Below, piece by piece: positions 1-13,300 of a stretch of 17,893 nucleotides of DNA (position 1 is its first letter; each line of letters opens with the position of its first letter). This DNA comes from Planomonospora corallina (lineage in GTDB: Bacteria > Actinomycetota > Actinomycetes > Streptosporangiales > Streptosporangiaceae): NCBI RefSeq assembly GCF_042650625.1, contig NZ_JBHSBM010000011.1, positions 687,297 to 705,189 of the forward strand, read 5' to 3'. A program made the position numbers and the translations under genes. The notes beneath the pieces were generated by a model. That model did no database searches and had not been told where the DNA came from. It was given only the letters and a program-made list of their open reading frames with translations.

Positions 1-884
1 ACGCGGCCGACCATCCGGGCGTACATCCGCACGGGGCTGGGGGCCGACGGCGGACTGAGGAAGCCGGGGAGCATGGGCAGGTCCACGGCGAACGGCTGGA
101 GGCGCTCGTAGAGCTCGTCGGCGCCCGCCGGGCGGCGCACGGGATCCTTCTCCAGCAGCTGCCCGATCAGCCGGTCCAGCTCGCCGGGGACGTCCGGCAG
201 CGGCGGCGGGCACTCCTTGACCTGGCGCTCGAACACGGCGTACTCGGTGGGCCCGGTGAACAGCTGCCTGCCCGTCAGCATCTCGTGCAGGACGCAGCCC
301 AGCGCGTACAGGTCGCTGCGCGGGCCGGCCAGGCCGCGCTGGATCTGCTCGGGGGCCATGTAGGCGGGCGTGCCGAGCAGCTGGCCGATCCGGGTGAAGC
401 GGGTGGAGCCGGTCTCGCGGAGCATCGCCAGCCCGAAGTCCAGGACCTTGACGCTGCCGTCGGGGCAGAGCATCAGGTTGGTCGGCTTGAGGTCCCGGTG
501 GTAGATCGAGAGCGCGTGCGCGGCCGAGAGCACCGCGCAGGCCTGGGCGGCGATCGCGGCGGCCCACGGGACCGGGAGCGGGCCGTGCTCGCTGACCAGG
601 TCGGCCACGGTGACGCCCTCGATGAACTGCATCACCTGGTACAGCCGGTGGCCCTCGGCGCCGAAGTCGTAGAGCACGGGGGCGCCGGGGTGCTCCAGCC
701 TGGCCAGGATGCGGGCCTCCCGCAGGAAGCGCTGCTGCAGCTCCTCGTCGGGGCCGGTGTGCAGGCGCAGGAACTTCACCGCAACCCTGCGGTCGAGGTG
801 CCGGTCGTGACCGGCGTAGACCGCGCCCATGCCTCCCTGCCCGAGGGGGAGGTCGTCGAGAACGTACCGGTCGCCGATGACCAT
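1..884 (-). CDS. Ser/Thr protein kinase (Hanks-type). N-terminal kinase domain complete; C-terminal part runs off the window start.
   Basis: Reverse-strand translation from the ATG at 884..882 gives MVIGDRYVLDDLPLGQGGMGAVYAGHDRHLDRRVAVKFLR. Further in are IYHRDLKPTN (catalytic loop), VLDFGLA (DFG) and GTPAYMAPE (APE), with no stops down to position 1. Strong SD (GGGGAGGG, 4 nt spacer) sits before the ATG, 29 nt after the upstream methyltransferase stop. Absent from the ORF track because it runs off the edge. Confidence 0.9.
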   Translation of the reverse strand, partial: MVIGDRYVLDDLPLGQGGMGAVYAGHDRHLDRRVAVKFLRLHTGPDEELQQRFLREARILARLEHPGAPVLYDFGAEGHRLYQVMQFIEGVTVADLVSEHGPLPVPWAAAIAAQACAVLSAAHALSIYHRDLKPTNLMLCPDGSVKVLDFGLAMLRETGSTRFTRIGQLLGTPAYMAPEQIQRGLAGPRSDLYALGCVLHEMLTGRQLFTGPTEYAVFERQVKECPPPLPDVPGELDRLIGQLLEKDPVRRPAGADELYERLQPFAVDLPMLPGFLSPPSAPSPVRMYARMVGR

Positions 885-913
885 CCGGCCCTCCCCTGCG
901 GACTAACGGGCTC

Positions 914-2824
914 CTACACCCCTTGGTCGCACGGCCGCAGATGGCCGTCGACCAGTCCGTCAAAGCCTAACCGGATCAAGGTCTCTCCCAGCGCGGCCGC
1001 CTCACGCAATCGGTCCTCCATCGCCGTCAGGGCGCGGAAGGCCTCGCCGTACCGGCGCTGCTCGGCCAGGGGCAGCATCGGCACCCGGGTCCGCCGCACG
1101 TCGAGCCTGCTGGAGCCGGGGTGGGCGCGGGCGGTGTCGGCGGAGCGCAGGCATCCGGCCAGGAAGCCCGGGTCGAGCCGGTCCGGGTCCACCCGGTAGA
1201 GCGTGAGCTGCGGCCCCAGCGCCGCGCCGGGCTCGGTGACCACCCGGACCGCGCCGAGGGCGGTGGCGACGACGTCGCCCGGCCGGAGCATGACCAGCGC
1301 CGGGTCGGGCGGGGCCCCGCCGGAGGGCGGCCCGCCCGAGGCGACGTCGTCGGCGGTCAGGACCGGGACCGGGCCGGAGTCCGTGGCCATGCGCTGCGGG
1401 GCCGCCAGGAGGGTGACCAGCCCCGTCTTGACCAGCTCGCCGACCGTCGTGGCCGGCAGCTCCTGCCGCTCGGGCAGCGGCTCCAGCGGCGGCGGCGCCT
1501 CCGTGAGGACGGCCGAGGCCGCCCGGAAGCGGTCCAGCGTGTCACCGAAGTCGCGGACGAAGTCCAGCGGCCCCTGCTGCGGGCGGTGCCGGGCCGGGGT
1601 GAGGTCGACCTCGTCGTCGAGCAGGTCGATGATCCGCACGGTACGGCCGGCGCCGGACGGCTCCGCCTCCGGGTCCCGCGCGTAGGCGCGCCAGGCCGGC
1701 TCCACCACCGACAGGTCCTCGCCCGCGTCCACCAGCAGGAGCGCCGAGGGCGGCCTGCTCCCGTCGGGGCGGCGGAGCATCCACAGGTCGGGGCCGCCGG
1801 GGGCCAGGCTGATCACCGCGCGCAGCGCCCCGGCCCGCAGCAGGTTGCCCCGGATCCGCTTGCCGGGGCGGCGGCCGGCCGCGGCGGCGGGCATCAGGAT
1901 CGCCACCAGGCCGCCCGGCCGCACGTGGCTCAGGCAGTGCTGGACCCAGGCCAGCTCGGATTCGCCGCGCGGCGGCATGCCGTACTCCCAGCGGGGGTCG
2001 CCGGTCAGCTCCTCGTGGCCCCACGCGCGCTCGTTGAACGGAGGGTCGCAGACCACCGCGTCGGCGAGCTCGCCGGCCAGGCCGTCCTCGCGGAGCGAGT
2101 CGCCGGCCGCGATCCGGGCCGGTGCGCCGCGCAGCAGCAGGCGGACCGCGGTGATCAGGGCGCTGGTCTCGTTGAGCTCCTGGCCGAGCGGGGCGGCGGC
2201 GTGCAGCAGGAGGGTGCCCACGCCGCAGGCGGGGTCGAGCACGGTGCCCGCGCCGGTCCGGCCGTCCCCGGCGGTCAGGCGGATCATGAGCGCCGCCAGG
2301 TCGTCCCTGGTCACCGCGAGCTGCCGGGAGCGTGCCTCGACGTAGCGCGCGCAGAGGAACTCGAAGGCCTCCCGCGGGCCGCGCTCGTCGGCCAGCCGGG
2401 CGGCCAGCCGGAGCAGCGCCGGGTCGGCCGGCGGCCGGGCGCGGCCGGGCAGGCCGGCCGTGGCGGCCGCCGCGCGGTCCGGGACGCACCGCACGCCGTG
2501 CTCGCGCCAGGTCTCCGGCTCGCGGTGCAGGAAGAGCAGGAAGGCGCCGATCCGGCCCACCAGCTCGCCCAGGCGCAGGTCGTCGACGGAGGTCCGCATC
2601 CGCTGCCAGACCAGGTCGCCGAGGGAGACCTCGAAGGACTTGCCGTTGTGGCGCAGCCACGCGGCGACCTCCGACAGGGAGAAGAGCGGGCTGGAGGCGG
2701 TGCCGCCGACCGGCTGCGGGAAGTCCTCGTGCCGGCGGCGCCAGTTGCTCACCGCGGCCCGTCCCACGTCGGCGAGCCGGGCGATGTCGCCCGCGTTGAC
2801 GGTGATCTCCCGGCTCTCCTCCAT
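914..2824 (-). CDS. Single-chain N6-adenine DNA methyltransferase: N-terminal HTH, HsdM-like AdoMet-MTase core, and one C-terminal HsdS-like target-recognition domain.
   Basis: 636-aa ORF. N-terminus ITVNAGDIARLADVGRAAVSNWRRRH is an excisionase/MerR-like HTH. VLDPACGVGTLL is motif I (AdoMet binding). VVCDPPFN is motif IV (D/NPPF/Y). HVRPGGLVAILMP is an HsdM-like motif. The C-terminus (LRPGDVV...LYRV...FLAGCL...VPMLPLAEQRRYGEAF) resembles a type I S-subunit TRD plus its conserved LPPLxEQ region. No restriction subunit in the window. Confidence 0.85.
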   Translation of the reverse strand: MEESREITVNAGDIARLADVGRAAVSNWRRRHEDFPQPVGGTASSPLFSLSEVAAWLRHNGKSFEVSLGDLVWQRMRTSVDDLRLGELVGRIGAFLLFLHREPETWREHGVRCVPDRAAAATAGLPGRARPPADPALLRLAARLADERGPREAFEFLCARYVEARSRQLAVTRDDLAALMIRLTAGDGRTGAGTVLDPACGVGTLLLHAAAPLGQELNETSALITAVRLLLRGAPARIAAGDSLREDGLAGELADAVVCDPPFNERAWGHEELTGDPRWEYGMPPRGESELAWVQHCLSHVRPGGLVAILMPAAAAGRRPGKRIRGNLLRAGALRAVISLAPGGPDLWMLRRPDGSRPPSALLLVDAGEDLSVVEPAWRAYARDPEAEPSGAGRTVRIIDLLDDEVDLTPARHRPQQGPLDFVRDFGDTLDRFRAASAVLTEAPPPLEPLPERQELPATTVGELVKTGLVTLLAAPQRMATDSGPVPVLTADDVASGGPPSGGAPPDPALVMLRPGDVVATALGAVRVVTEPGAALGPQLTLYRVDPDRLDPGFLAGCLRSADTARAHPGSSRLDVRRTRVPMLPLAEQRRYGEAFRALTAMEDRLREAAALGETLIRLGFDGLVDGHLRPCDQGV

Positions 2825-2908
2825 GGACAGTCAGAGTAGTTGACAGAACTAAAACGGTCTACAACATTTTTGCTTGTGAAGTCCTTCAACCAGTGCTTTA
2901 CTGCCTTC
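2825..2908. promoter_or_regulatory. AT-rich divergent intergenic/promoter island between the methyltransferase (-) and PP2C #1 (+).
   Basis: About 45% GC in a 72% GC context. Contains TTGACA (2840-2845) and a GACAG-N11-GACAG direct repeat (2826-2846). No convincing SD for either flanking gene. Exact -10 elements could not be fixed by eye. Confidence 0.4.
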
Positions 2909-3706
2909 ATGGCACAAAACGAAGGACTGGCACTGCGCTACGCCGCCCGCTCCGATGTCGGAGTCCGCCGCGAGGCGAACGAGGACTCGGGCTACGCCAG
3001 CCCGCGTCTGCTGGCCATCGCCGACGGCATGGGTGGCCACGCGGGCGGAGAGGTCGCCAGCTCGCTCGTCGTGACGACCCTGGCCGCGCTGGACGAGGCC
3101 CTCCCGGTGCCGGACGCCACCTTGGAGGAGAGCCTCCAGGGTGTCGCCAGAGACGTCAACCGCGCGCTGCGCGGGATGACCGAGCGCGAGCCCGCGCTGC
3201 GCGGGATGGGCACCACCTTCACCGCCATGCTCTGGGACGGCGCCGCGTTCGCCCTGGCCCACGTCGGGGACTCCCGCGCCTACATGCTGCGCGACGGCGC
3301 GCTCTACCAGATCACCCACGACCACACCCTCGTCCAGTCGCTGGTGGACGAGGGACGCATCACCCCCGAGCAGGCGGCCGAGCACCCGCGCCGGTCGATG
3401 GTCCTGCGCGTGCTGGAGGGGACCGGCGACGGCGACCTGGACCTGAGCCTGCGCGAGGCCCGGCCGGGCGACCGCTACCTCCTGTGCTCCGACGGCCTGA
3501 CCGCCGTGGTCGGGCCGGAGGCCCTCTTCAACACCCTCACCGACGTCGACGACCCCGACGAGGCCGCCCGGTGGCTCATCGAGCTGGCCAACAGCGGGGG
3601 CGGCCCCGACAACATCACCTGCGTCGTCGCCGACTTCGGCCCCCACCCCGCCTCCACCGAGCGCCTCGTCGTGGGCGCCGCCGCCGAGCAGAGACTGACA
3701 CCCTGA
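2909..3706 (+). CDS. PP2C-family Ser/Thr protein phosphatase (paralog 1).
   Basis: MAQNEGLALRYAARSDVGVRREANEDSGYAS...LLAIADGMGGHAGGEVASS...LCSDGL...GGGPDNITCVVADF are canonical PPM/PP2C motifs. ATG at 2909 preferred over the track start at 2840, which lies in the AT-rich intergenic island and overlaps promoter-like sequence. Confidence 0.88.
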   Translation: MAQNEGLALRYAARSDVGVRREANEDSGYASPRLLAIADGMGGHAGGEVASSLVVTTLAALDEALPVPDATLEESLQGVARDVNRALRGMTEREPALRGMGTTFTAMLWDGAAFALAHVGDSRAYMLRDGALYQITHDHTLVQSLVDEGRITPEQAAEHPRRSMVLRVLEGTGDGDLDLSLREARPGDRYLLCSDGLTAVVGPEALFNTLTDVDDPDEAARWLIELANSGGGPDNITCVVADFGPHPASTERLVVGAAAEQRLTP

Positions 3707-3817: not shown

Positions 3818-3848
3818 GAGGGCCGGGCCCGGGAGAGGGCCCGGCCTC
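3818..3848. terminator. GC-rich hairpin between the convergent PP2C #1 and giant ATPase genes (possible bidirectional terminator).
   Basis: GGCCGGGCCC (3821-3830), 6-nt loop GGGAGA, then GGGCCCGGCC (3837-3846). Extendable with one bulge to about 13 bp. Overlaps the ATPase stop codon (3847-3849). No U-tract, as is common in actinomycetes. Confidence 0.4.
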
Positions 3849-6800
3849 ATCGCTCCGGCGCGAGCCGGTCGGCGGCCCGGTCGATGGCGGTGCCGACCCG
3901 GTCGGCGAGCAGGCCCACCGCGCCGACGGCCCGGGCCACCGGGTCGTCCTCGCCGCCGCCGAGCGCGCGGGCGCGCACGTAGGCGGCCTTCACCTCGGCC
4001 CACCGCGCGGCCTGCCCGGGGGTGAGCCTTCCCCTGATCTCGGCCAGCCTCAGCAGGTTCTCCTCGGCGCCGGACGTGAGCGTCTGCGCCTCGCCGAGGT
4101 AGTGGTCGTCGATGACGGCCTCCAGCTCGGCGTCGTTCATCACTGCCGAGATCCGCGCCGCCAGCTTGGTCATGTTCCGGTAGGAGCCCTGGAGCCGGAA
4201 CGGCGGCTCGGTCCGCGCGGCGTCCGACTGCGCGGCCGAGGCGATGTAGGCCTGGTTGACGGACAGGACCACCCGCTGGACGTGGAGCAGCTTGCGCAGC
4301 ACCGCGAGGATCTGCTCCAGCTCCACCGAGGAGTACGGATGGGCCAGCCGGTCGGCGCGGACGGCCGGGTCGCCCTGCGCCAGCCGTACCAGCAGGCGGA
4401 CGTCCTCGCGCTCGCGGGTCGCCAGCGGAGCCAGGACGGGGTTGGAGGTCAGCGCCGTGTCGACGTAGCTCAGCGCGAACACCTCCTCCCTGCCGGAGAG
4501 CACGTCGCCGAGGTTCCAGACATCGGCGCGGTTGGCGAGCATGTCGGGGATGCGGAACCGCGCGCCCGACTCGGTGTACGGGTTGCCCGCCATGCAGACC
4601 GCGAAGCGCTTGCCGCGCAGGTCGTAGGTGCGGCTCCGGCCGTTCCAGACCCCCTCCATGCGGCGCTGGGCGTCGCACAGCGAGATGAACTTCTGCAGCA
4701 GCTCCGGTGAGGTGTGCTGGATGTCGTCCAGATAGAGCAGGACGTTGTTGCCCATCTCCAGCGCGAAGTTGATCTTCTCGACCTCCTGGCGGGAGGTCGC
4801 GTCCGGGGCCTCGGCGGGGTCCACCGAGGTGACCCGGTGACCCAGCGCCGGGCCGTTGACCTTCACGAAGACCAGGCCCAGGCGGTTGGCGACGTACTCC
4901 ATCAGGGTCGTCTTGCCGTAGCCGGGCGGGGAGATGAGCAGCAGCAGGCCCATCTGGTCGGTCCGCTTGGCGTCGCCGCTCGCGCCCAGCTGCTTGGCCA
5001 GGTTGTCGCCGATGAGCGGCAGGTAGACCTCGTCGAGCAGCTGGTTGCGGACGAAGGAGCTCATCACCTTCGGCCGGTACTCCTCCAGCCGCAGGCGGGT
5101 GCGCTCGGCGGCGACCAGCTCGTTGCGGCGCCGCAGGTAGTCCCGGTAGGCCGGCGCCCGGTGGGTCCGGAAGCGCCTGGTCCGGGCGAGGAACTCGTCC
5201 AGGCGCACCGTCATGCTCCGGCCGGTGACGCGCGGGTGCGCGCCGAGCAGCCCCTCGACGGTCGCCTCCAGCGCCGCCGACGAGTCGTGGCGGGGCAGCC
5301 CTTCGCAGAGCAGTACGGCGACGGCCTCGGGCAGCTCGGGGCAGGAGCGGGCCAGGGCGGCGCCGGAGCCGTCCCCGGCGTTCCTGGAGTCCCCGCTGCC
5401 TCCGGACGCGCCTGCGGTCACGCCTGCGGTCACGGCTCCGGAGCCGCCCGCGAAGGCCTCCAGCCAGGCCTCGGCCAGCCGCCTGCGGCCGGGCAGGTCG
5501 CCGGCGAGGGCGCGCAGGTCCTCGGCGAAGTCGGCGCGGGCGGCGCCCAGCGCCCGGTCGAAGCGCTCCAGCAGCCTGCGGGCCCCGGCGCTCGTCACGA
5601 ACCCGGCCGGAGCGCTCGCCAGCTCCTCGAACAGGTACTCCCCGGCCAGCTCGGAGATCTCCGCGGGATCCCCGAAGGTCCCGGAGGCCGCGGCTCCCCG
5701 TGCCTCCCCGGACACCGGTCCGCCGGATCCGGTCCGTGCCTCCCCGGGCACCGGTCCGCCGGATCCGCTCCGCCCGTCCGGCGCGGCCTCGTCACCTCCG
5801 CGGGCCGGCTGTGCCAGGAAGGCTCCGTCACCTCCGCGGGCCGGCTCCGCCAGGAAGGCCGCCACCGCCGAGCCCAGGGCGCGGCAGGTCTCCTCCACCG
5901 CCGCCACGTGCCCGAACCGGGCGCGTGCCCGGGCCAGCGAGACCGCCCGGGTGGTCCAGGAGGAGCGTTCGGCCTCGTCCGTCCCGAAGGCCCAGAAGAG
6001 CTGGGCCGCCGCCCGCGCGGCCGGGGGGTAGCGGAGCAGCCCGGCGCCCGCGTGCAGCCGGAGCAGCACGTCGAGGATCGCCGCGGCGTCGTGGTCGTGC
6101 ACGCCCCGCTCGTAGCCCTCGTCGTAGCGGCTCTCCGCGGCCCGGCGGACGATCCGGAGCAGCTCCCCGTCGGCCACCGCCGCCTCGTGCAGCGCGTCGA
6201 GCGAGACCGTGAGCCCGCCGGAGCCGCCCTCCACGAGCGGGGTGCCCGCCTCGGCGGCGGCCAGGACCGCGGCGGCCAGGTGCTCGGCCCGGTAGACGTC
6301 GGGCGACTCCGAGACCAGCAGCTGCGACCAGAACGGCCGGGTCGCGGCGAACGCGGGGTCGCCGACGGGGGCGCGGTAGTCGGTCCCGGTGACGGCGAAG
6401 GCCATCTCCCCGCCGTGCGGGACCAGCGTCAGGTCCGCCTCCTGGGTGTTGACCGCGAACCGGTGCCGGCCCAGCCGGATGGTCTCGCCGCCGTCGGTGT
6501 AGAGGTCGAGCCGGTCGCGCAGCGCCCGCCCGGCCTCCTGCCGGGCCGCCTTGACCCGGCCCTCCAGCTCCTCGGCGCGGACCTGGTCGCCCAGCTCGCG
6601 CAGCTCGGCGGCGACCGCGTGCAGCTTGCGCACCATCGGGTCGGAGGCGAAGTAGGTGTTGACCTCGTCGACCGAGCCGAGCGAGGAGACCCGCCGCTGC
6701 ACGCTCGCCAGGATCCGGTCCGCCGAGCCGGCCAGCCGGTCGGCCCGGCGGGCCCGCTCGTCCAGCAGGGCCTGCCGCCGGGAGGAGAACGCCTCGTAGA

Positions 6801-9075
6801 CGTCCTCCCGCTTGGCGGACAGCTCCGCGAGGAAGTCGTCGAACTCGGTGAAGCGCGACTCCAGGTTCTCCAGCTGCAGCATCAGCCGGCCGAGCTGCTC
6901 GTCGCACCGGTCGGGGGTGTCGGCCACCGCCAGGGCCCCGGTGATCGCCTGCCCCAGCAGGGCGAACTCGGCGGCGAAGGCGGCCCGGCCCTCGGCGGTC
7001 AGCAGCTCGCGCCGGCGCGCCCGCAGGGTGGCCCGCGCCCGGTTGACCCCGCCGAGCACCTCGCCCACCCGCTCCAGGATGGCGGTGCGCACCCCGGCGT
7101 CGGCGATGTCGAGCGTGCCGACCACCTCGATGACCACCTCCAGGCCGCGGGCCTGCACGGTCAGCCGCTCGTCGACGGGCTCGGCCTCGGCCGTGGAGGT
7201 GATCTCCGCGGCCTTCGCGGCCAGGCGCCCGACCTCGTCGCGGTAGTCGGCGAAGGCGTCCTCGCCCGACAGGAAGGCGACCGCGCGCTGCGCCGTACCG
7301 TCGAGCCCGTCCCGCAGCTCGGCGTCCAGCCGGTCGATCCGGCCGGTGTCGGCGTAGCGCAGCTCGCGCAGGGTCACCAGGTGTCCCTGCGCCTGGCGGA
7401 GCCCGTCCAGCCGGGTGACCCACTCGGCGGCCGAGCGGGCCGCCTCCCCGCGAGCCCGGCGCAGGAGGGAGGCGATCTGCGCGGCGGCCTCCTCCACCGC
7501 CGTCTCGGCCTGCCCCGTGAGGGAGCGGACCTTCTCGAACTCGTCCAGCACCTGCTCGGCGGTGGCCCGCAGGTCGGCCAGGGGAGTGCGCAGGTCCCCC
7601 TGCACACCGGGGTCGCCCAGCCAGTGGTAGTGGTCGAAGACCCGCGTGCAGGCCGCGATCAGTGCCTCGAACACCGCCTGCGAGGGCGCCATCTCCTCGA
7701 CCATGCGGGCCACCGAGAGGCAGTCGGAGATGCCGCGCACCAGCTCGGCGTTGCCGATCCGCTCCAGCGGGCCGGTCCCGACCGGCTGGGCGGCGGCGTA
7801 GACGTCGGAGGTGAACGGCGTCTGCCACACCTGCATCGGGTGCACCCGGGTCGGCTCCTCCGAGACCGCCCGGAACACCACCAGCGTGCCGTCGTCGAAC
7901 AGCGAGTAGCCGTGGCAGGGGATCGGCGTCGCCACCTGCTTGCGGATCACGTTGTACGGCAGCAGCAGCGAGCGGCCCTCGGCCCGGGCGTGGAACACGT
8001 AGAGCACGTCCTCGCCGTTGACCGAGCGGATGACCCGCTCGAACTCCAGGTCGGTGACGTCGGTGTCGAAGGTCTTGCTCACCCCGGTGGACAGGTAGTA
8101 GCCGCCCGGGAAGATGATGCCCTGGTCCTCCGGGAGCCGCCGGCAGGCCTGGCCGATGCCGTCCAGCCGCACGACCTCCTTGGTCCGGGTGTTGAAGACC
8201 AGGTGCCGCCACTCCGTCTCGTTGTAGGGCCGGATGCGCAGCAGGATCAGCGGGCCGATCCTGGCGTGCTGCACGTCGGCGTCGGCGAGGCTCTGCAGCG
8301 GCTCGGCGACCGGCTCGTGGTAGATCCCCTCGCCGGTCTCCGTGTTGTTCTCGATCTTGATGGTGAGGTCGCCGCCGACGGTCTCGACGAACACCTCGCC
8401 CTGGATCGAGATGTGCGGGTGCCGGCCGAGGACGTGGTCGTCCCGGGTGGTGGCGGTCCACTCGAAGTCGTGCGAGGCGGGGAAGACGTGGTCGCGCTCG
8501 CCCCGGTCGTCGATGTAGGTGAGCGAGCCGTCCGTGCCGACCTGCCAGCGCAGCACCCGGATGTCCTGCGGGCCGGTCCGGAAGACGGCCAGCAGCTTGC
8601 CGTCCACCCGGCGGAGCTGGATCAGCCGGGTCTCCCGGTAGTACCGGTAGAGCTCGGCGAAGTCCCGCTCGAACTGCGGATGGTGGAAGAGCGGCTCGGG
8701 GTCGAACCGGAAGGCGTCCGAGTCCCGGCTGAAGCGGTGCATGGAGAAGACGTCGGCGACGGTCGTCTCCGGCTTCAGCCCGATGAAGACGTTGTACCCG
8801 AAGAGCATGAGATCGCCGATCGAGACGATGTCGCGGGGCACGCAGTTGTTCTCGGTGCGGATCCGCTCGGTCCCGATCAGGCGGAGCTCGGTCCCGCCGA
8901 AGACCTCCAGGCGCCGGGCGTTGAGCTCCTCGGCCCGCCGGGCCAGCTCCCCGGCCTGCTCGGCGAGGCGGGCGCGGAGCACCTCGTAGGTGCCCGCGTC
9001 CAGCGCCTGCTCCGTCGTGCCCTGCGGGCCGGTGAGGGCCTCGGAGGTGTCGGTGACGCTCACGTCCGGCGTCAC
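3847..9075 (-). CDS. Giant (1742 aa) multidomain protein with a C-terminal MoxR/midasin-clade AAA+ ATPase module. Likely the flotillin-associated 'DNA repair ATPase'/DUF3686-like family (family name from memory, unverified).
   Basis: Uninterrupted 5229-nt ORF. GTG start (9075..9073) overlaps the flotillin TGA stop (GTGA overlap). Walker A LLLISPPGYGKTT is encoded around 4906-4935. Walker B is LLYLDDIQH; sensor-1-like motif is FAVCMAGNPY (ATMNP-type, AAA_5 clade). N-terminal ~480 aa is beta-rich, followed by a long alpha-helical/coiled-coil middle. A Gly/Ala/Ser-rich linker contains 12-aa tandem repeats. Confidence 0.8.
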   Translation of the reverse strand: MTPDVSVTDTSEALTGPQGTTEQALDAGTYEVLRARLAEQAGELARRAEELNARRLEVFGGTELRLIGTERIRTENNCVPRDIVSIGDLMLFGYNVFIGLKPETTVADVFSMHRFSRDSDAFRFDPEPLFHHPQFERDFAELYRYYRETRLIQLRRVDGKLLAVFRTGPQDIRVLRWQVGTDGSLTYIDDRGERDHVFPASHDFEWTATTRDDHVLGRHPHISIQGEVFVETVGGDLTIKIENNTETGEGIYHEPVAEPLQSLADADVQHARIGPLILLRIRPYNETEWRHLVFNTRTKEVVRLDGIGQACRRLPEDQGIIFPGGYYLSTGVSKTFDTDVTDLEFERVIRSVNGEDVLYVFHARAEGRSLLLPYNVIRKQVATPIPCHGYSLFDDGTLVVFRAVSEEPTRVHPMQVWQTPFTSDVYAAAQPVGTGPLERIGNAELVRGISDCLSVARMVEEMAPSQAVFEALIAACTRVFDHYHWLGDPGVQGDLRTPLADLRATAEQVLDEFEKVRSLTGQAETAVEEAAAQIASLLRRARGEAARSAAEWVTRLDGLRQAQGHLVTLRELRYADTGRIDRLDAELRDGLDGTAQRAVAFLSGEDAFADYRDEVGRLAAKAAEITSTAEAEPVDERLTVQARGLEVVIEVVGTLDIADAGVRTAILERVGEVLGGVNRARATLRARRRELLTAEGRAAFAAEFALLGQAITGALAVADTPDRCDEQLGRLMLQLENLESRFTEFDDFLAELSAKREDVYEAFSSRRQALLDERARRADRLAGSADRILASVQRRVSSLGSVDEVNTYFASDPMVRKLHAVAAELRELGDQVRAEELEGRVKAARQEAGRALRDRLDLYTDGGETIRLGRHRFAVNTQEADLTLVPHGGEMAFAVTGTDYRAPVGDPAFAATRPFWSQLLVSESPDVYRAEHLAAAVLAAAEAGTPLVEGGSGGLTVSLDALHEAAVADGELLRIVRRAAESRYDEGYERGVHDHDAAAILDVLLRLHAGAGLLRYPPAARAAAQLFWAFGTDEAERSSWTTRAVSLARARARFGHVAAVEETCRALGSAVAAFLAEPARGGDGAFLAQPARGGDEAAPDGRSGSGGPVPGEARTGSGGPVSGEARGAAASGTFGDPAEISELAGEYLFEELASAPAGFVTSAGARRLLERFDRALGAARADFAEDLRALAGDLPGRRRLAEAWLEAFAGGSGAVTAGVTAGASGGSGDSRNAGDGSGAALARSCPELPEAVAVLLCEGLPRHDSSAALEATVEGLLGAHPRVTGRSMTVRLDEFLARTRRFRTHRAPAYRDYLRRRNELVAAERTRLRLEEYRPKVMSSFVRNQLLDEVYLPLIGDNLAKQLGASGDAKRTDQMGLLLLISPPGYGKTTLMEYVANRLGLVFVKVNGPALGHRVTSVDPAEAPDATSRQEVEKINFALEMGNNVLLYLDDIQHTSPELLQKFISLCDAQRRMEGVWNGRSRTYDLRGKRFAVCMAGNPYTESGARFRIPDMLANRADVWNLGDVLSGREEVFALSYVDTALTSNPVLAPLATREREDVRLLVRLAQGDPAVRADRLAHPYSSVELEQILAVLRKLLHVQRVVLSVNQAYIASAAQSDAARTEPPFRLQGSYRNMTKLAARISAVMNDAELEAVIDDHYLGEAQTLTSGAEENLLRLAEIRGRLTPGQAARWAEVKAAYVRARALGGGEDDPVARAVGAVGLLADRVGTAIDRAADRLAPER
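5409..5432. repeat. 2 x 12-bp perfect tandem repeat (CGCCTGCGGTCA) inside the ATPase linker.
   Basis: Read directly at 5409-5420 and 5421-5432. Encodes AVTAGVTAG on the minus strand. Confidence 0.8.
5699..5770. repeat. 2 x 36-bp tandem repeat inside the ATPase linker.
   Basis: Units CGTGCCTCCCCGGACACCGGTCCGCCGGATCCGGTC (5699-5734) and CGTGCCTCCCCGGGCACCGGTCCGCCGGATCCGCTC (5735-5770), 33/36 identical. Encode SGSGGPVPGEAR / TGSGGPVSGEAR. Confidence 0.8.
5791..5862. repeat. Second, unrelated 2 x 36-bp tandem repeat inside the ATPase linker.
   Basis: Units GTCACCTCCGCGGGCCGGCTGTGCCAGGAAGGCTCC (5791-5826) and GTCACCTCCGCGGGCCGGCTCCGCCAGGAAGGCCGC (5827-5862). Encode AFLAEPARGGDG / AFLAQPARGGDE. 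Confidence 0.8.
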
Positions 9076-11300
9076 TCCCGGCCCGCGTCGGCGACGGGGC
9101 CGCCCCCGGCGCTGCCGTTGCCCGCCGCCGGCACGTCCGTGACGGTCACCGGGACGTCCGTACCGGTCGCCACCGTGGCGGTGGGCGTCACCGGCACCGC
9201 GGCGGCCGTCGTCACGGTCGCGGCGCCCCCGCCGTTCCCACCGCTGCCGCCGGAGCCGAGCAGCTCGCGCAGCCGGGCCCCCTCGGGGCCGCCCTCGTTC
9301 ACCAGCTTCACCAGCAGCGCCGAGAGCGACAGATCGCGCACGTCCGAGCTGCCCAGCGAGCCGAGCACCCGGGTCAGGTCGGCGGGCAGGCTCTGGGACC
9401 CGTCGAGGTACGGCCCGGCGAGCGTGCGGGCCACGCCGGAGTGCTCCACGAAGCCGTCCACGCTCTTGCCCATGGCGACCGCGCCGACCAGCTTGTCGAA
9501 GAACACGCTGTCGCCGCCGACGATGTCGATGTCGGCCTTCTCCAGCCCGGCGGCGAGCACCACGGCCTGCGCCTCGGCGACCTTGACCTGGGAGGTGACG
9601 CCGGCCAGGCGGATCTCCTTCTCCGCCTCCAGCCGCAGGCGGTACTCCTCGTGGCCCCGGCTCGCCTCGTCCATCGCGGCCAGCGCCGCCGCCTTCTCGG
9701 TCAGACCCTCGGCCTCGGCCTTGAGCGTCTCGCCGACCCGGGCGGCCTCGGCCAGCGCCTTGGCCTGCTCGCCGTCGGCCTCCGCCATGAGCTTCTCGCG
9801 CAGCCCGGCGGCGACGGCCTGGGCCCTGGCCTGCTCGCCCTCGGCGGCGGCCAGCGCCTTCTCCCGCTCGACCGCGGCCTCGGCCCGGCCGACCTTCTCG
9901 ATCGCGGCGGCGTTGCGCTCGGCGACCTGCACCTCGGCCAGGCCGGTCGCGGCGGCCTCGGCCTGGACGCCCTCGGCCAGGCGGATCTTGGCGCGGGCGT
10001 CGAGCTCGGCGGCCTGCTGGCGCGCCTCGGCCAGCACCAGGGACTCGCGGGCCTTGTGCTTGGAGGCGGCCTCGGCCGCCTCGGCGGCCTTGATGTCCTT
10101 GACCAGCTTCTCCTGCGCCTCGGCCTCGGCCTGGATGATCACGGCCTGGCGGGTGCGCTCGGCCTCCTCGACCACCCGCAGGCGCTTGATGCTCTCCTCC
10201 TGCTCGGCGACCGTCTTCTCCACCGCGACGCGCTCGCGGACGACCTCGGCGATCGAGCGCTTCTCGCCCTCGAGCTCCTTGTCCTTGGCGATGCGGGACA
10301 GCTCGGTCTCGCGCTCGCGGGCGATGACCTCCAGCAGACGGTCCTTCTCGATCCGCTCGCTCTCGATGGCGATGACCCGCTCGCGGTTCTTGGCCGCCAC
10401 CTCGATCTCCCGGGCCTGGTTCTCCCGCTGGATGCCGAGCTGCTCCTCGGTGCGCAGGTCCGCGGTGCTGGCCTTGAGCCGCTCCTCGGCCCGGACCCGG
10501 GCGATCTCGGCCTCCTCGCGGGCGCGCATGGTCTCGACCTCGCGCTTCTGCTTGATCTCCGCGTCGGCCTGGCGGCGCTCCAGCTCCAGGATGGCCTCCC
10601 GCGCGTCCACGTTCTGGCGGGTGATCTCCTTCTCCTCGTGGCGCTGGTACTCGTTGGTCCGCACGTGCTCGATCGCGGTCAGCTCGGTGATCTTGCGGAT
10701 GCCCTGGGCGTCGAGGATGTTCGCCGGGTCGAGCTTGCTCAGCGGCGTCTGCTCCAGGTAGTCGATCGCCGCGTCCTCGAGGCTGTAGCCGTTCAGGTCG
10801 GTGCCGATGACCTGGATGATCTGGTCGCGGAAGTGATCGCGCTGGGTGTAGAGGTCGACGAAGTCGAGCTGCTTGCCGACGGTCTTCAGCGCCTCGGAGA
10901 ACTTGGCGTTGAACAGCTCCTGCAGCGTCTCGGCGTCACTGGCCCGGGCGGTGCCGATGGCCTGGGCGACCTTCACCACGTCCTCGACGGTCTTGTTGAC
11001 CCGGACGAAGAAAGTGATCTTGATGTCGGCCCGGATGTTGTCCCGGCAGATCAGGCCCTCCTTGCCGGAGCGCTCGATCTCGATGGTCTTCACCGAGATG
11101 TCCATGAACTCGGCCTTGTGGACCACGGGCAGCACGACCGCCCCGGTGAAGGTGACGTCGACCTTGTTGACCTTGGACACGATCAGCGCCCTGCCCTGTT
11201 CGACCTTGTGGAACAGGCGCGTGATCATGAAGACGATGCCGATGAGGACGAGCAGGGCGAAGCCCAGGAGCACGCCGAAACCGGTGGAGATGACGTCCAT
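9072..11300 (-). CDS. Flotillin-family protein (SPFH/band-7 domain with long EA-rich coiled coil; YqiK/FloT-like).
   Basis: N-terminal TM segment then an SPFH-like region (MDVISTGFGVLLGFALLVLIGIVFMITRLF...GRALIVSKVNKVDVTF...). Then several hundred residues of E/A/R/K-rich coiled coil (AEAEAQEKL..., flotillin EA-repeat hallmark) and a Gly/Thr/Val-rich C-terminal tail. ATG at 11300 preferred over the track's TTG at 11312 (SD GAGGGA 6-7 nt upstream). Stop overlaps the downstream ATPase start. Confidence 0.9.
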   Translation of the reverse strand: MDVISTGFGVLLGFALLVLIGIVFMITRLFHKVEQGRALIVSKVNKVDVTFTGAVVLPVVHKAEFMDISVKTIEIERSGKEGLICRDNIRADIKITFFVRVNKTVEDVVKVAQAIGTARASDAETLQELFNAKFSEALKTVGKQLDFVDLYTQRDHFRDQIIQVIGTDLNGYSLEDAAIDYLEQTPLSKLDPANILDAQGIRKITELTAIEHVRTNEYQRHEEKEITRQNVDAREAILELERRQADAEIKQKREVETMRAREEAEIARVRAEERLKASTADLRTEEQLGIQRENQAREIEVAAKNRERVIAIESERIEKDRLLEVIARERETELSRIAKDKELEGEKRSIAEVVRERVAVEKTVAEQEESIKRLRVVEEAERTRQAVIIQAEAEAQEKLVKDIKAAEAAEAASKHKARESLVLAEARQQAAELDARAKIRLAEGVQAEAAATGLAEVQVAERNAAAIEKVGRAEAAVEREKALAAAEGEQARAQAVAAGLREKLMAEADGEQAKALAEAARVGETLKAEAEGLTEKAAALAAMDEASRGHEEYRLRLEAEKEIRLAGVTSQVKVAEAQAVVLAAGLEKADIDIVGGDSVFFDKLVGAVAMGKSVDGFVEHSGVARTLAGPYLDGSQSLPADLTRVLGSLGSSDVRDLSLSALLVKLVNEGGPEGARLRELLGSGGSGGNGGGAATVTTAAAVPVTPTATVATGTDVPVTVTDVPAAGNGSAGGGPVADAGRE

Positions 11301-11312
11301 GTGTTCCCTCAA

Positions 11313-11984
11313 CTAGATGGGACGGTCGGGGTCGAGTTCCGCGTCGTACGGCGTCACCCAGAAGAACTCGCCGTCGGAGTCGTAGGCGTAGATCAGGGCG
11401 GTGCTGCCGGCGCCGAAGACGTCGTCGCCGGTCTGTCTGACCTGTACGAGGGCGGAGGAGCCGTCGCGGGAGGTGATCTCGGCCTGGCCGAAGTCCCTTC
11501 CCACCCGGCTGGTGCGGATGACGCAGGTGCGGCCCACGAAGTCGGCGCGGGAGGGAACGCGCTCCTTCGACGCGGCGCGCTGCAGCGGCACCGCCAGCAG
11601 GCGAGCGCCGATCCAGGCGCAGGCGAGCGCCGCGACGAGCACCGCGACCAGGAGGACGGCCTGGGGGAAGGCAGGGATCCCGGCGACGAGGGCCGAGCCG
11701 GTGAGGCTGGTGAACCAGGCGATGGAGACCATCGCGGAGACGGTCACGCCGACCGGCACTCCGCCGAGCCCGAGGAAGGCCAGGAGCCCGCCGACGCCTC
11801 CCGCGCCCCCTGCATCCCCCGCGTCACCGGCGAGCTCGCTCCCGCCGCCCGCCGCGTCACCGTCGAGCGCGCCCCCGGTGAAGAGGGTGAGAATCCAGTA
11901 ACCGGCCACCACGAGCAGCGGGAAACTGAACAGGACGGTGGGGAAAGAGAGCGCGGCCTCGATGAACCGTTCCAACCGACCCAT
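11313..11984 (-). CDS. NfeD/YqiJ-like membrane protein (flotillin operon partner; TM helices plus C-terminal OB-fold-like segment).
   Basis: MGRLERFIEAALSFPTVLFSFPLLVVAGYWILTLF..., several hydrophobic helices, and a C-terminal GRTCVIRTSRVGRDFGQAEI...ALVQV resembling the NfeD beta-barrel. TAG stop lies 12 nt before the flotillin ATG. ATG 11984 preferred; the track's TTG 12011 is the alternative start. Confidence 0.7.
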   Translation of the reverse strand: MGRLERFIEAALSFPTVLFSFPLLVVAGYWILTLFTGGALDGDAAGGGSELAGDAGDAGGAGGVGGLLAFLGLGGVPVGVTVSAMVSIAWFTSLTGSALVAGIPAFPQAVLLVAVLVAALACAWIGARLLAVPLQRAASKERVPSRADFVGRTCVIRTSRVGRDFGQAEITSRDGSSALVQVRQTGDDVFGAGSTALIYAYDSDGEFFWVTPYDAELDPDRPI

Positions 11985-12039
11985 GGATGTAGAAGATCCC
12001 CCTGCTGGCAACCCCGTGGCCGCGTCCCCGAACGCGTGC

Positions 12040-12246: not shown

Positions 12247-13170
12247 TCATCCCGCCGACCGGCGCGCCTGTCTCACCTCGCGGGTGCTCGCCCAGGCGTC
12301 CGCCACCGGGCCCAGGTGCCCGAGCTTGTCGGGGTTGATCACCGAACGGATGGTCTGGATCCGTCCGCCGAGCACATCGAGCGCCAGGGTGTGGAGCACT
12401 CTGCCGTCCCGGTCCCGGAAGACCGCCCCCGGCTCGCCGTTGACCTCGTGCGGCTCGAACGTCACACCGATCCGGGCCATCAGGGGGAAGACGGAGGCGA
12501 GCAGCCGGGCGACGTTCTCGGCGCCGACGACGGCCCTGGCCAGTTGCGGGGCCCTGCCGCCGCCGTCGCCGGCCATCGACACGTCGGCGGCGAGCAGCTC
12601 CCGCAAACCGGTGACGTCGCCCTCCCGCAGGGCGTCGAAGAACCGCGCCGCGAGTTCCGCCCGCTCCGCCCGGTCCGCTTCGAAGCGTGGACGCCCGGCC
12701 TCCATGTGCCGCCGCGCCCGCACCGACAGCTGCCGGCAGGCCGCCTCCGACCGTCCCACCGCCGCGGCGACCTCGCCGAACCCGAAGCCGAACACCTCCC
12801 GCAGCACGAACACCGCCCGCTCCAGCGGGCTGAGCCGCTCCAGCAGCAGCAGCGCCGCCATCGACACCGAGTCGGCGAGCTCCACCGACCGCGCCGGGTC
12901 CTGGTACGGATCGCTCAGCAGCGGCTCGGGGAACCACGGGCCCACGTACTCCTCCCGCCGGACCCGGGCGGAGCGCAGGACGTCGATCGAGATCCGCGTC
13001 ACCGTGGCGGACAGAAAAGCCCTGGTCGACGCGGGGCGGGCCGCCGAGCCGTCGAAACGCAACCACGTCTCCTGCACCGCGTCCTCGGCCTCGCCCACAC
13101 TGCCCAGAATCCGATAGGCGATCGAGAACAGCAGCGGTCGCAGCTCCTCGAACTCCTCGACCTTGCTCAC
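12247..13170 (-). CDS. ECF41-family RNA polymerase sigma factor (sigma-70 regions 2 and 4 with a fused SnoaL/NTF2-like C-terminal regulatory extension; SigJ-like).
   Basis: Region 2 (LLFSIAYRILGSVGEAEDAVQETWLRF) and region 4 (LSPLERAVFVLREVFGFGFGEVAAAVGRSEAACRQL). ECF41 signatures YVGPWFPEP, DGGGR and C-terminal NPDKL. GTG start at 13170 with SD GAGGGAG and 5-nt spacing; the track's ATG at 13233 is the alternative. Confidence 0.9.
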   Translation of the reverse strand: MSKVEEFEELRPLLFSIAYRILGSVGEAEDAVQETWLRFDGSAARPASTRAFLSATVTRISIDVLRSARVRREEYVGPWFPEPLLSDPYQDPARSVELADSVSMAALLLLERLSPLERAVFVLREVFGFGFGEVAAAVGRSEAACRQLSVRARRHMEAGRPRFEADRAERAELAARFFDALREGDVTGLRELLAADVSMAGDGGGRAPQLARAVVGAENVARLLASVFPLMARIGVTFEPHEVNGEPGAVFRDRDGRVLHTLALDVLGGRIQTIRSVINPDKLGHLGPVADAWASTREVRQARRSAG

Positions 13171-13264
13171 ACCGACTCCCTCACCCTGGAGGTCCTCCCG
13201 CCGGGCCGTACTCGCCGGCGCGGACCTCCCCACCGATCATCGGGACCACCGGGCCGCCCGAGTG

Positions 13265-13292
13265 ACGGCCCGGGCCCCGGGGTCCGGGCCGT
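13265..13292. promoter_or_regulatory. ~28-bp near-perfect GC palindrome between the CMD stop and the sigma start (attenuator/terminator or operator).
   Basis: AGTGACGGCCCGGGCCCCGGGGTCCGGGCCGT. Symmetric about the CCCCGGGG core (13275-13282) with one non-Watson-Crick position. Begins 9 nt after the CMD stop (13301-13303). Confidence 0.45.
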
Positions 13293-13300
13293 TCAACGGA

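What the first reader, a model, noticed from the sequence alone, without database searches (positions are those of the whole stretch)
1..2908. HTH-MTase-TRD single-chain adenine methyltransferase co-operonic with a Ser/Thr kinase, divergent from a PP2C phosphatase
A 636-aa protein combines an N-terminal HTH (DIARLADVGRAAVSNWRRR), a complete gamma-class N6-adenine MTase core (DPACGVG..., VCDPPFN) and a single HsdS-like TRD. It lacks any restriction subunit, so it is an orphan. It is followed after 29 bp, with a strong SD, by a Hanks-type Ser/Thr kinase with all catalytic motifs intact. A PP2C phosphatase is transcribed divergently from a shared AT-rich promoter island. A DNA methyltransferase with a protein kinase, with a phosphatase and a large P-loop ATPase nearby, recalls the PglX/PglW/PglZ/PglY logic of the Streptomyces Pgl (BREX type 2) phage-defence system. 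The domain architectures differ, though: PglX is much larger, PglZ is an alkaline-phosphatase fold rather than PP2C, and the ATPase here belongs to a flotillin operon. It is more likely a kinase/phosphatase-regulated epigenetic or defence MTase module than canonical BREX. Either way, a half-TRD MTase hard-wired to a signalling kinase is unusual.
Basis: partly seen in the sequence, partly recalled or inferred. Interest (0 to 1): 0.62.

Follow-up and report, generated by a model that had tools for sequence, protein, structure and literature searches.

The report
Conserved DNA methylase–kinase–phosphatase gene trio
A single-chain DNA adenine methyltransferase, a minimal Ser/Thr kinase and a PP2C phosphatase form a three-gene unit kept together across many actinomycete genera; it has no nuclease of its own but descends from a methylase–kinase pair that elsewhere sits in phage-defence operons, so it is probably a phosphorylation-controlled DNA-marking switch that nobody has studied.

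Summary
The window comes from Planomonospora corallina. On the minus strand it encodes a 636-aa protein made of a putative N-terminal HTH, an HsdM-like gamma-class N6-adenine MTase and half an HsdS subunit (914-2824). After 29 nt and a GGGGAGGG Shine-Dalgarno comes a Hanks kinase (1-884). A PP2C gene (2909-3706) diverges from the MTase across an 84-nt AT-rich spacer.

Orthologues show the kinase is only about 297 aa, with no PASTA or transmembrane segment. A kinase is adjacent in 76 of 86 related loci, and a divergent PP2C in 48 of 86. The flanking genes are otherwise unrelated. The DUF3686 ATPase operon is a neighbour only in the two Planomonospora loci examined.

The PP2C plus short-kinase form is one clade that tracks taxonomy. 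Its sister branches pair the same MTase with a longer TPR-kinase, inside DrmA/DrmB (DISARM-like) or HsdR operons. A 16-nt element, TGTGAA-N5-TCAAC (2875-2890), lies upstream of the MTase in 62 of 87 loci.

It is not BREX/Pgl and not MADS. My best reading is a nuclease-less, vertically kept derivative of a defence-type MTase-kinase module. It would work as an HTH-autoregulated, phospho-switched m6A methyltransferase (inferred). A minimal kinase-based abortive-infection system remains a serious rival. I found no paper describing it.

The parts
1..884 (-). Hanks-type Ser/Thr kinase. 294 of about 297 codons are visible and the gene runs off the window start. It is a kinase domain plus a conserved roughly 35-aa tail (LPxLPGFL..PSPxRMYAR). 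There is no TM, PASTA or TPR.
   Evidence: Pfam Pkinase 2.5e-46. All catalytic motifs are present. The P. alba orthologue is 297 aa and ends 3 residues beyond the window. The tail is conserved across the PP2C clade.
885..913 (-). 29-nt MTase-kinase spacer with Shine-Dalgarno GGGGAGGG (896-889).
   Evidence: Read directly from the sequence.
914..2824 (-). 636-aa single-chain MTase: HTH, HsdM-like helical domain, gamma-class N6-adenine MTase core, then half-HsdS (TRD plus a long conserved-region helix).
   Evidence: 100% identical to the 'N-6 DNA methylase' of Planomonospora corallina.
2645..2803 (-). N-terminal winged HTH (res ~8-60). It is the most conserved domain of the whole family.
   Evidence: HTH_17 E=0.058 and mad1 E=0.0015. 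AF2 places helices at 11-17, 22-31 and 50-59 and a strand at 46-49. Identity is 72-78% across both clades.
1625..2254 (-). MTase catalytic core (res 191-400), with motif I DPACGVG (2216-2236) and motif IV DPPF (2036-2047).
   Evidence: Pfam N6_Mtase. PDB profile hits to PacII M and HsdM. Motif census.
932..1582 (-). Half-HsdS module (res ~415-631): helix, TRD, then a long C-terminal helix.
2825..2908 (.). 84-nt AT-rich divergent control region, strongly conserved across Streptosporangiales and Pseudonocardiales.
   Evidence: Alignment A4. Sequences from further loci.
2875..2890 (+). Conserved 16-nt element TGTGAAGTCCTTCAAC (TGTGAA-N5-TCAAC; core palindrome TGAAG-N2-CTTCA). It lies 19 nt upstream of the PP2C ATG and about 51-66 nt upstream of the MTase ATG. 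It is a candidate operator for the MTase HTH.
   Evidence: Found upstream of the MTase in 62/87 loci, against 0.0027 expected per 270 nt. It is the single match in the window, with 0.03 expected.
2909..3706 (+). PP2C-family Ser/Thr phosphatase, 265 aa, with metal-binding motifs intact (ADGMGGH, SDG, DN).
   Evidence: Pfam PP2C_2 2.2e-12. NCBIfam Stp1_PP2C 213 bits against a cut-off of 230. Divergent from the MTase in 48/86 loci.

Best explanation
Shown. The locus is a three-gene unit: PP2C transcribed divergently from an MTase-kinase operon.

The MTase is a self-contained type-I-like enzyme. HsdM and half an HsdS are fused, and an HTH is added at the N-terminus. The SAM-binding and DPPF catalytic motifs are intact. 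The kinase is a bare Hanks kinase domain with a conserved C-terminal tail.

The unit is kept together across Streptosporangiales and Pseudonocardiales while its flanks change. This form is one monophyletic clade of a larger actinomycete family. In the other clades the same MTase is paired with a longer TPR-kinase and often sits inside DrmA/DrmB-UvrD (DISARM-like) or HsdR-YgjP (type I) operons.

Inferred.
1. This clade lost the helicase/nuclease partners and gained a dedicated phosphatase. It became a chromosomally fixed orphan m6A DNA methyltransferase.
2. Two MTase chains dimerise through the half-HsdS helices, as half-S type I enzymes do, and methylate a conserved and probably symmetric bipartite site.
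3. The N-terminal HTH binds the conserved TGTGAA-N5-TCAAC element in the divergent promoter region. In this way it sets the ratio of PP2C to MTase plus kinase.
4. The kinase and PP2C form a reversible phospho-switch acting on the MTase (its DNA binding or activity) and/or on a conserved cellular target.

The output is regulated DNA marking rather than restriction.
For: Architecture.

Conservation of the trio with unrelated flanks. Only three gene families recur. One search gives a kinase in 76/86 loci and a PP2C in 48/86.

Co-divergence: MTase and kinase identities correlate, r = 0.81.

Strong constraint: the kinase averages 80% identity against 60% for the MTase, and the kinase is the better conserved of the two in 46/46 loci.

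TRD not hypervariable: 55% identity within the clade and 44% between clades, similar to the rest of the protein. This fits one conserved target, as in orphan regulatory MTases.

Phylogeny: the tree tracks taxonomy, and the PP2C clade is sister to the DrmAB/HsdR-linked branch.

Genomic setting:
- No nuclease or helicase in the window or in clade flanks.
- No full-length match in the phage collection. The only close match in the 'plasmid' collection is an 11.85-Mb Nonomuraea record, presumably the chromosome. Otherwise only distant relatives appear, some on true actinobacterial plasmids.
- GC3 of 0.97-0.98, in line with other coding frames in the window.

Cis-element and HTH: the element is enriched about 260-fold upstream of family MTases. 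It lies in a spacer conserved across orders. The HTH is the best conserved domain.

Precedents from established knowledge:
- Half-HsdS enzymes dimerise and read symmetric sites. EcoR124I-NT is the example (abstracts of PMC2877798 and PMC3320862, as listed).
- N-terminal HTHs of SsoII-type MTases autoregulate their own operons (my own knowledge).
Against: No methylation, DNA-binding or phosphorylation data exist for any member, so every functional step is inferred.

The sister clades sit in defence operons. The kinase's best PADLOC matches are PD-T4-6 defence-kinase models at 4e-96. A defence role is therefore not excluded.

The HTH assignment is weak by sequence (E = 0.058).

The element could be a promoter feature rather than an operator. 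In this clade it overlaps a possible -35/-10 pair for a leaderless PP2C transcript.

The kinase is better conserved than the MTase. This could mean that its main substrate is not the MTase.

Ten of 86 loci lack the kinase.

The tree is a rough NJ tree, midpoint-rooted, without support values.
Confidence: 0.45

Rival explanations
1. Minimal nuclease-free defence (abortive-infection) system. The HTH-MTase-TRD marks self DNA and senses unmethylated or foreign DNA. It then activates the sensor-less kinase, which phosphorylates conserved host targets to arrest growth. The PP2C keeps the system off or resets it, acting like an antitoxin. The logic resembles Pgl/BREX-2, MADS or Stk2/PD-T4-6.
For: Sister clades of the same MTase-kinase pair lie in DrmA/DrmB-UvrD-GmrSD and HsdR-YgjP operons. 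The kinase hits PADLOC PD-T4-6 models at 4e-96 and mad6 at 7e-66, and the MTase hits the PADLOC MTase_I model PDLC03037 at 8e-87. Distant relatives sit beside type I R-M on actinobacterial plasmids. A kinase conserved at about 80% fits conserved host targets. A dedicated phosphatase fits a toxin/antitoxin-like control.
Against: The clade looks vertically inherited, with a conserved TRD and conserved control region. The flanks are housekeeping or envelope genes rather than defence islands. There are no clade members on phages or true plasmids. The PADLOC kinase hits mostly reflect generic Hanks-kinase similarity. The curated NCBIfam scores are far below cut-off: MAD6 132 against 460 and PglW 43 against 990.
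Confidence: 0.3
2. The MTase-like protein acts mainly as a sequence-specific DNA-binding transcription factor or sensor. Methylation is dispensable, and the kinase/PP2C pair belongs to an ordinary signalling pathway that uses it as an output regulator.
For: The HTH is the most conserved domain. Many family members outside this clade have a non-canonical motif IV: HPPF in Streptomyces, and APPF, IPPF or VPPF in three of the DrmAB-linked loci. This suggests that catalysis is not always required. A conserved operator-like element accompanies the family.
Against: In this clade motif I (DPACGxG) and motif IV (DPPF) are nearly invariant, and the whole catalytic core is 68% identical within the clade. 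That argues for retained catalysis.
Confidence: 0.12
3. Decaying remnant of an R-M/DISARM system, or a chance juxtaposition of a solitary MTase with housekeeping STPK/PP2C genes, with no joint function.
For: No nuclease is present. Actinomycete genomes carry dozens of STPKs and several PP2Cs, and a second PP2C, 59% identical, lies 11 kb away.
Against: All three ORFs are intact with catalytic motifs. The adjacency is kept in 76/86 loci across four orders while the flanks turn over. MTase and kinase co-diverge (r = 0.81). The intergenic DNA is conserved.
Confidence: 0.04

Closest known systems
Single-chain and half-S type I-like MTases (V. vulnificus YJ016 intact MTase, PDB 7EEW; engineered EcoR124I-NT half-HsdS)
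   Different: This protein has an extra N-terminal HTH and no HsdR partner. Its TRD is conserved rather than hypervariable. It has an obligatory Hanks kinase neighbour and a divergent PP2C.
DISARM (DrmA/DrmB plus an MTase)
   Same: Sister clades of this MTase occupy the MTase slot of DrmA-DrmB operons. PADLOC scores are DrmA 1e-238 and DrmB 3.5e-70.
   Different: The window has no DrmA, DrmB or DrmC. In the relatives the operon additionally carries a TPR-kinase and a UvrD-like helicase, which as far as I know are not part of described DISARM. Three of the DrmAB-linked MTases (L067, L070, L077) have a degenerate motif IV.
Pgl / BREX type 2 (PglX MTase, PglW kinase, PglZ, PglY)
   Same: A defence-family adenine MTase genetically coupled to a Ser/Thr kinase. 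A phosphatase-named partner is also present.
   Different: There is no PglZ (alkaline-phosphatase fold) and no BrxC/PglY. The MTase is half the size of PglX. The kinase lacks the NERD nuclease, pseudokinase and wHTH/iSTAND parts of PglW, and scores 42.6 bits against a cut-off of 990 (architecture from PMC12839542 and PMC4365076).
MADS (methylation-associated defence system, mad1-8)
   Same: It contains an HTH protein (mad1), an adenine MTase (mad2) and a kinase (mad6). Weak PADLOC hits to all three are seen.
   Different: MADS has eight genes and this unit has three. NCBIfam MAD2 scores 19 bits against 720, and MAD6 scores 132 against 460. The resemblance is at domain level only.
Orphan regulatory adenine MTases (Dam, CcrM, CamA)
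   Same: No cognate nuclease, lineage-wide conservation and conserved specificity determinants. CamA and M.BseCI appear among the structural hits.
   Different: There is no sequence relationship beyond the MTase fold. As far as I know, none of these has a dedicated Ser/Thr kinase/phosphatase pair or an N-terminal HTH.

Membership tests
Type I R-M methyltransferase (HsdM/HsdS) | Gamma-class N6-adenine MTase core with motif I (FxGxG-like) and motif IV (D/N)PP(Y/F) | tested here: met
   DPACGVG and DPPF are present. Pfam N6_Mtase 4e-24. PDB HsdM and PacII M hits down to 1.4e-36.
Type I R-M methyltransferase (HsdM/HsdS) | Separate HsdS subunit with two TRDs and two conserved regions | tested here: not met
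   There is one TRD plus one long helix, fused to the MTase chain. No hsdS gene is present in the window.
Type I R-M methyltransferase (HsdM/HsdS) | HsdR translocase/nuclease partner | tested here: not met
   None in the window or in orthologous loci. HsdR is present only next to sister-clade members L031 and L053.
BREX type 2 / Pgl | PglZ and BrxC/PglY core genes | tested here: not met
   No PADLOC, Pfam or NCBIfam hit to either in any window gene. The phosphatase is PP2C.
BREX type 2 / Pgl | PglW multidomain kinase (NERD, pseudokinase, kinase, wHTHs) | tested here: not met
   The kinase is about 297 aa. NCBIfam BREX_PglW scores 42.6 bits against a cut-off of 990.
MADS | MAD2 MTase and MAD6 kinase equivalogs within an eight-gene operon | tested here: not met
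   MAD2 scores 19.3 against 720 and MAD6 132 against 460. The unit has three genes.
DISARM | DrmA helicase plus DrmB (DUF1998) adjacent to the MTase | tested here: not met
   Absent from the window and from the PP2C clade. Present in sister-clade loci L036, L040, L047, L067, L070 and L077.
PknB/Stk1 PASTA kinases | TM segment and extracellular PASTA repeats after the kinase domain | tested here: not met
   Orthologues end at residue 296-297. NCBIfam PknB_PASTA scores 265 bits against a cut-off of 450, covering the kinase domain only.
PD-T4-6 (single-gene kinase defence) | Stand-alone defence Ser/Thr kinase. Membership is defined by homology plus a phage-resistance phenotype. | tested here: inconclusive
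   PADLOC PDLC04042 4.2e-96 over the kinase domain. This library has no curated cut-off. Generic Hanks kinases score similarly. The phenotype cannot be tested here.
Stp1/IreP PP2C phosphatases | Score above the NCBIfam equivalog cut-off | tested here: not met
   213.2 bits against a cut-off of 230. The PP2C fold and metal motifs are present.
Orphan (solitary) regulatory DNA MTase | No cognate restriction gene, lineage-wide conservation and conserved specificity domain | tested here: met
Orphan (solitary) regulatory DNA MTase | A demonstrated methylation motif and a regulatory phenotype | not testable with these tools
   Needs a methylome and genetics.

The most novel reading that the evidence does not exclude
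A bacterial DNA adenine methyltransferase whose activity or DNA binding is switched by its own dedicated Hanks kinase and PP2C phosphatase. It would be an epigenetic writer wired directly to Ser/Thr signalling, domesticated from a DISARM/type-I-associated MTase-kinase defence module, and autoregulated through a family-specific operator (TGTGAA-N5-TCAAC) read by its N-terminal HTH. The same finding would imply that a previously unnoticed kinase component belongs to a whole branch of DISARM-like and type-I-like systems in actinomycetes.
Probability: 0.3. Interest if true: 0.78.

Novelty: new variant of a known kind. Interest (0 to 1): 0.6.

Why it matters
MTase-kinase couplings are known only from large defence systems (Pgl/BREX-2, MADS), and the role of the kinase there is still unclear. 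This locus offers a stripped-down, three-gene version: one MTase, one bare kinase and one phosphatase. It is conserved across antibiotic-producing actinomycete genera, and it has a clear cis-element that can be tested.

It gives a tractable entry point to two questions. Can Ser/Thr phosphorylation control DNA methylation in bacteria? How are defence modules domesticated into chromosomal regulators?

It also shows that a branch of DISARM-like and type-I-like operons carries a conserved TPR-kinase and, in places, MTase-like proteins with a degenerate catalytic motif. The defence-system models I searched (PADLOC, NCBIfam) have no specific match for that architecture.

There is a practical caveat. 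Automated defence finders may label the kinase here as 'PD-T4-6' and the MTase as 'type I MTase', without recognising the unit.

Tried and rejected
- Exact-sequence look-ups of the window MTase and of its 100% match P0001 found no contig. I therefore extended the locus through the P. alba orthologue, which is 89% identical.
- The BREX and MADS readings were rejected on curated score cut-offs and missing core genes.
- The DUF3686/AAA ATPase as a PglY-like partner was rejected. It belongs to an NfeD-like / SPFH-like / DUF3686 operon that neighbours the trio only in the two Planomonospora loci examined.
- A sequence-level search of the C-terminal domain against PDB sequences and Pfam found nothing. 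Only the fold comparison identified it as HsdS-like.
- The consensus sigma-70 promoter and terminator scan of 2700-3000 found nothing.
- Rfam found no RNA family anywhere in the window.
- An 8-nt inverted repeat (2880-2887 / 2921-2928) that could sequester the PP2C start is conserved only in Planomonospora and partly in Streptosporangium. I did not pursue it.
- Four of the literature searches and two papers read turned up no description of this trio or of kinase-bearing DISARM-like operons.
- Pfam scans of conserved Amycolatopsis flanking genes found no nuclease or helicase.


Full report
**What is in the window**

The window is about 73% GC. Position-specific GC resolves the many overlapping ORFs into one gene set:
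- kinase, 3-884 (-)
- MTase, 914-2824 (-)
- PP2C, 2909-3706 (+)
- a 1742-aa DUF3686/DUF7902/AAA protein, 3847-9075 (-)
- a 746-aa gene, 9072-11312 (-), and a 232-aa gene, 11313-12011 (-)
- a SigJ-like ECF sigma factor, 12247-13233 (-)
- a CMD-family gene, 13301-13774 (-)
- a second PP2C, 14114-14887 (-)
- prfC, 15107-16693 (+)
- an oxidoreductase, 16795-17775 (+)

The MTase is 100% identical to the 'N-6 DNA methylase' of Planomonospora corallina.

**Checking the observation**

- The 636-aa protein carries the quoted HTH string, motif I (DPACGVG) and motif IV (DPPF), in gamma-class order.
- The MTase stop and the kinase ATG are 29 nt apart, with a GGGGAGGG Shine-Dalgarno.
- The kinase has all Hanks motifs.
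- The PP2C diverges across an 84-nt AT-rich spacer.

The MTase core is HsdM-like. Pfam N6_Mtase scores 4e-24. A profile search of PDB sequences finds PacII M at 1.4e-36 and several HsdM chains.

The full AF2 model has pLDDT 82.6. Its best Foldseek match over the full length is the single-chain V. vulnificus type I MTase 7EEW, followed by PacII M and HsdM chains.

The HTH is supported weakly by sequence (HTH_17 E=0.058; mad1 E=0.0015) and by the secondary structure of the model.

**Extending beyond the window**

Exact-match look-ups failed. The P. alba orthologue (89% identical) lies on a 158-kb contig. There the kinase is 297 aa and ends three residues past the window edge. It has no PASTA, transmembrane or other domain. 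Downstream are unrelated genes, a phosphoribosyltransferase and type IV pilus genes.

The kinase is not a PknB-like cell-wall kinase.

**Conservation of the gene trio**

In Streptosporangium, Nonomuraea and a 'Nocardia aurea' contig the same PP2C / MTase / kinase arrangement recurs with entirely different flanks. A Pseudonocardiaceae MAG has PP2C and MTase only.

A scan of one genome per species, using a diverse alignment, found at least 594 relatives. I kept 80 loci from Streptosporangiales, Pseudonocardiales, Micromonosporales and Streptomyces.

I called genes in all 86 loci and clustered them. Only three families recur: the MTase, the kinase and the PP2C. Counts:
- A kinase is adjacent on the same strand in 76/86 loci.
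- A divergent PP2C is present in 48/86.
- MTase and kinase identities to the window proteins co-vary, r = 0.81.
- In all 46 complete trios the kinase (mean 80% identity) is better conserved than the MTase (60%) and the PP2C (62%).

The DUF3686 operon neighbours the trio only in the two Planomonospora loci examined, so it is not part of the unit.

**Two forms of the family**

A rough NJ tree separates two groups.

- The first is a monophyletic 'PP2C plus short kinase' clade that includes the window. It follows taxonomy: Planomonospora with Streptosporangium; Nonomuraea; Acrocarpospora with Herbidospora; Amycolatopsis.
- The second comprises the remaining branches. These lack PP2C and have a kinase of 500-690 aa with C-terminal TPR repeats.

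In many of the second group the pair is embedded in defence operons:
- DrmA (PADLOC 1e-238), DrmB (3.5e-70), MTase, kinase and a UvrD-like helicase, with GmrSD added in L036. These are Micromonospora, Herbidospora, Planotetraspora, Sinosporangium and one Amycolatopsis.
- HsdR, a YgjP peptidase, MTase and kinase, in Thermoactinospora and Acrocarpospora.

More distant relatives sit next to complete type I R-M systems on actinobacterial plasmids. None is in the phage collection.

The family is therefore rooted in restriction/defence biology. The window's clade is the nuclease-less, phosphatase-bearing derivative. Conserved flanking genes in Amycolatopsis contain no nuclease or helicase.

**Features that bear on mechanism**

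(i) The TRD is not hypervariable. Identity is 55% within the clade and 44% between clades, similar to the rest of the protein. The HTH is the best conserved domain at 72-78%. This is unlike classical type I systems and suggests one conserved target.

(ii) Motifs I and IV are nearly invariant in the window's clade. Elsewhere in the family the first residue of motif IV varies: N, H (all Streptomyces), A, I, V, Y or E. Some relatives may therefore be non-catalytic sensors.

(iii) The 84-nt spacer is conserved across orders. Within it lies a 16-nt element, TGTGAA-N5-TCAAC.
- It occurs within 260 nt upstream of the MTase in 62/87 loci, in both forms of the family.
- The background rate is 0.0027 per 270 nt.
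- It is the only match in the window.
- In the PP2C clade it points toward PP2C, 19 nt from its ATG. There it overlaps a possible -35/-10 pair for a leaderless transcript.
- In Actinomadura it is duplicated 67 nt apart.
- It is missing where the MTase is internal to a DrmAB or HsdR operon.

(iv) The kinase has a conserved post-domain tail, LPxLPGFL..PSPxRMYAR. It is a candidate docking peptide.

**Interpretation**

Shown:
- the domain architecture
- intact catalytic motifs in all three proteins
- conserved linkage and co-divergence of MTase and kinase
- descent from a defence-associated family
- absence of a nuclease
- a family-specific cis-element

Inferred:
- The MTase dimerises through its half-HsdS helices and methylates a conserved symmetric site. 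The precedent is EcoR124I-NT (PMC2877798, PMC3320862).
- The HTH binds the conserved element to autoregulate the divergent promoters. The precedent is SsoII-type MTases (my own knowledge).
- The kinase/PP2C pair is a reversible switch on the MTase or on a conserved cellular target.

I put about 0.45 on this 'domesticated, phospho-regulated orphan MTase' reading and about 0.3 on a minimal kinase-based abortive-infection system. The rest goes to a non-catalytic DNA-binding regulator or a functionless remnant.

**Comparison with known systems**

It is not BREX/Pgl. There is no PglZ or BrxC, and PglW scores 42.6 against 990. The architecture for comparison comes from PMC12839542 and PMC4365076.

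It is not MADS. MAD2 scores 19 against 720, and MAD6 scores 132 against 460.

It is not DISARM, since the window has no DrmA or DrmB.

It is not a canonical type I system, since it has no HsdR and no separate two-TRD HsdS.

Structurally the MTase is a member of the single-chain and half-S type I-like MTases.

The conserved trio, the cis-element and the kinase-bearing DISARM-like and type-I-like operons did not turn up in four of the literature searches. I rate the finding a new variant of a known kind, namely MTase-kinase modules of the restriction/defence world. Interest is 0.6.

Noticed in passing
window 2875-2890 (+); also loci L001-L086, within 260 nt upstream of the MTase: A family-wide cis-element, TGTGAA-N5-TCAAC, lies upstream of the HTH-MTase genes in 62/87 loci, against 0.0027 expected per 270 nt. 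Its orientation flips between the PP2C clade and the other clades. Actinomadura has two copies 67 nt apart.
   Followed up: yes
loci L036, L040, L047, L067, L070, L077 (also L035, L026); L031, L053: Sister-clade MTase-kinase pairs are embedded in two kinds of operon: DrmA, DrmB, MTase, TPR-kinase and UvrD-helicase (with GmrSD in L036), or HsdR, YgjP-peptidase, MTase and kinase. I found no description of this kinase-bearing DISARM-like / type-I-like architecture.
   Followed up: partly
MTase motif IV column (window residue 260) in loci L064, L067, L070, L076-L086: The first residue of the (D/N)PPF catalytic motif is H in all Streptomyces members and in L085. It is A, I or V in three of the DrmAB-linked loci (L067, L070, L077), A in L064 and Y in L076. 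These 'MTases' may be catalytically impaired sensors.
   Followed up: partly
window 3847-12011 (-): A three-gene operon is present only in the two Planomonospora loci examined. It comprises a 232-aa gene whose hydrophobic stretches suggest an NfeD-like membrane protein, a 746-aa SPFH/flotillin-like gene with a long E/A-rich segment likely to be coiled coil (no Pfam hit; QmcA E=0.18), and a 1742-aa DUF3686 ('ATPase involved in DNA repair') / DUF7902 / AAA protein. The gene ends overlap or abut (9072-9075 and 11312/11313). Function unknown.
   Followed up: partly
window 14114-14887 (-): A second PP2C phosphatase, 59% identical to the one in the trio (E = 2e-94), lies 11 kb away next to prfC. Its relationship to the module is unknown.
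   Followed up: partly
window 1-130 (-), the kinase C-terminus: The roughly 35-aa tail after the kinase domain (LPxLPGFL..PSPxRMYAR..GRV) is conserved across the PP2C clade. It is a candidate docking motif.
   Followed up: partly
window 2880-2887 / 2921-2928: A perfect 8-nt inverted repeat, AGTCCTTC / GAAGGACT, brackets the PP2C start codon. It could form an mRNA hairpin or be a second half-operator. It is conserved only in Planomonospora and partly in Streptosporangium.
   Followed up: partly
window 12247-13774 (-): A SigJ-type ECF sigma factor with a C-terminal SnoaL-like domain (TIGR02957, 8.5e-109) lies next to a carboxymuconolactone-decarboxylase-family gene. This is an ordinary actinomycete pair, unrelated to the finding.
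   Followed up: no
window 9500-11000: AT skew is strongly negative (-0.32 to -0.39). This coincides with the E/A-rich region of the 746-aa minus-strand gene and is probably a codon-composition effect.
   Followed up: no
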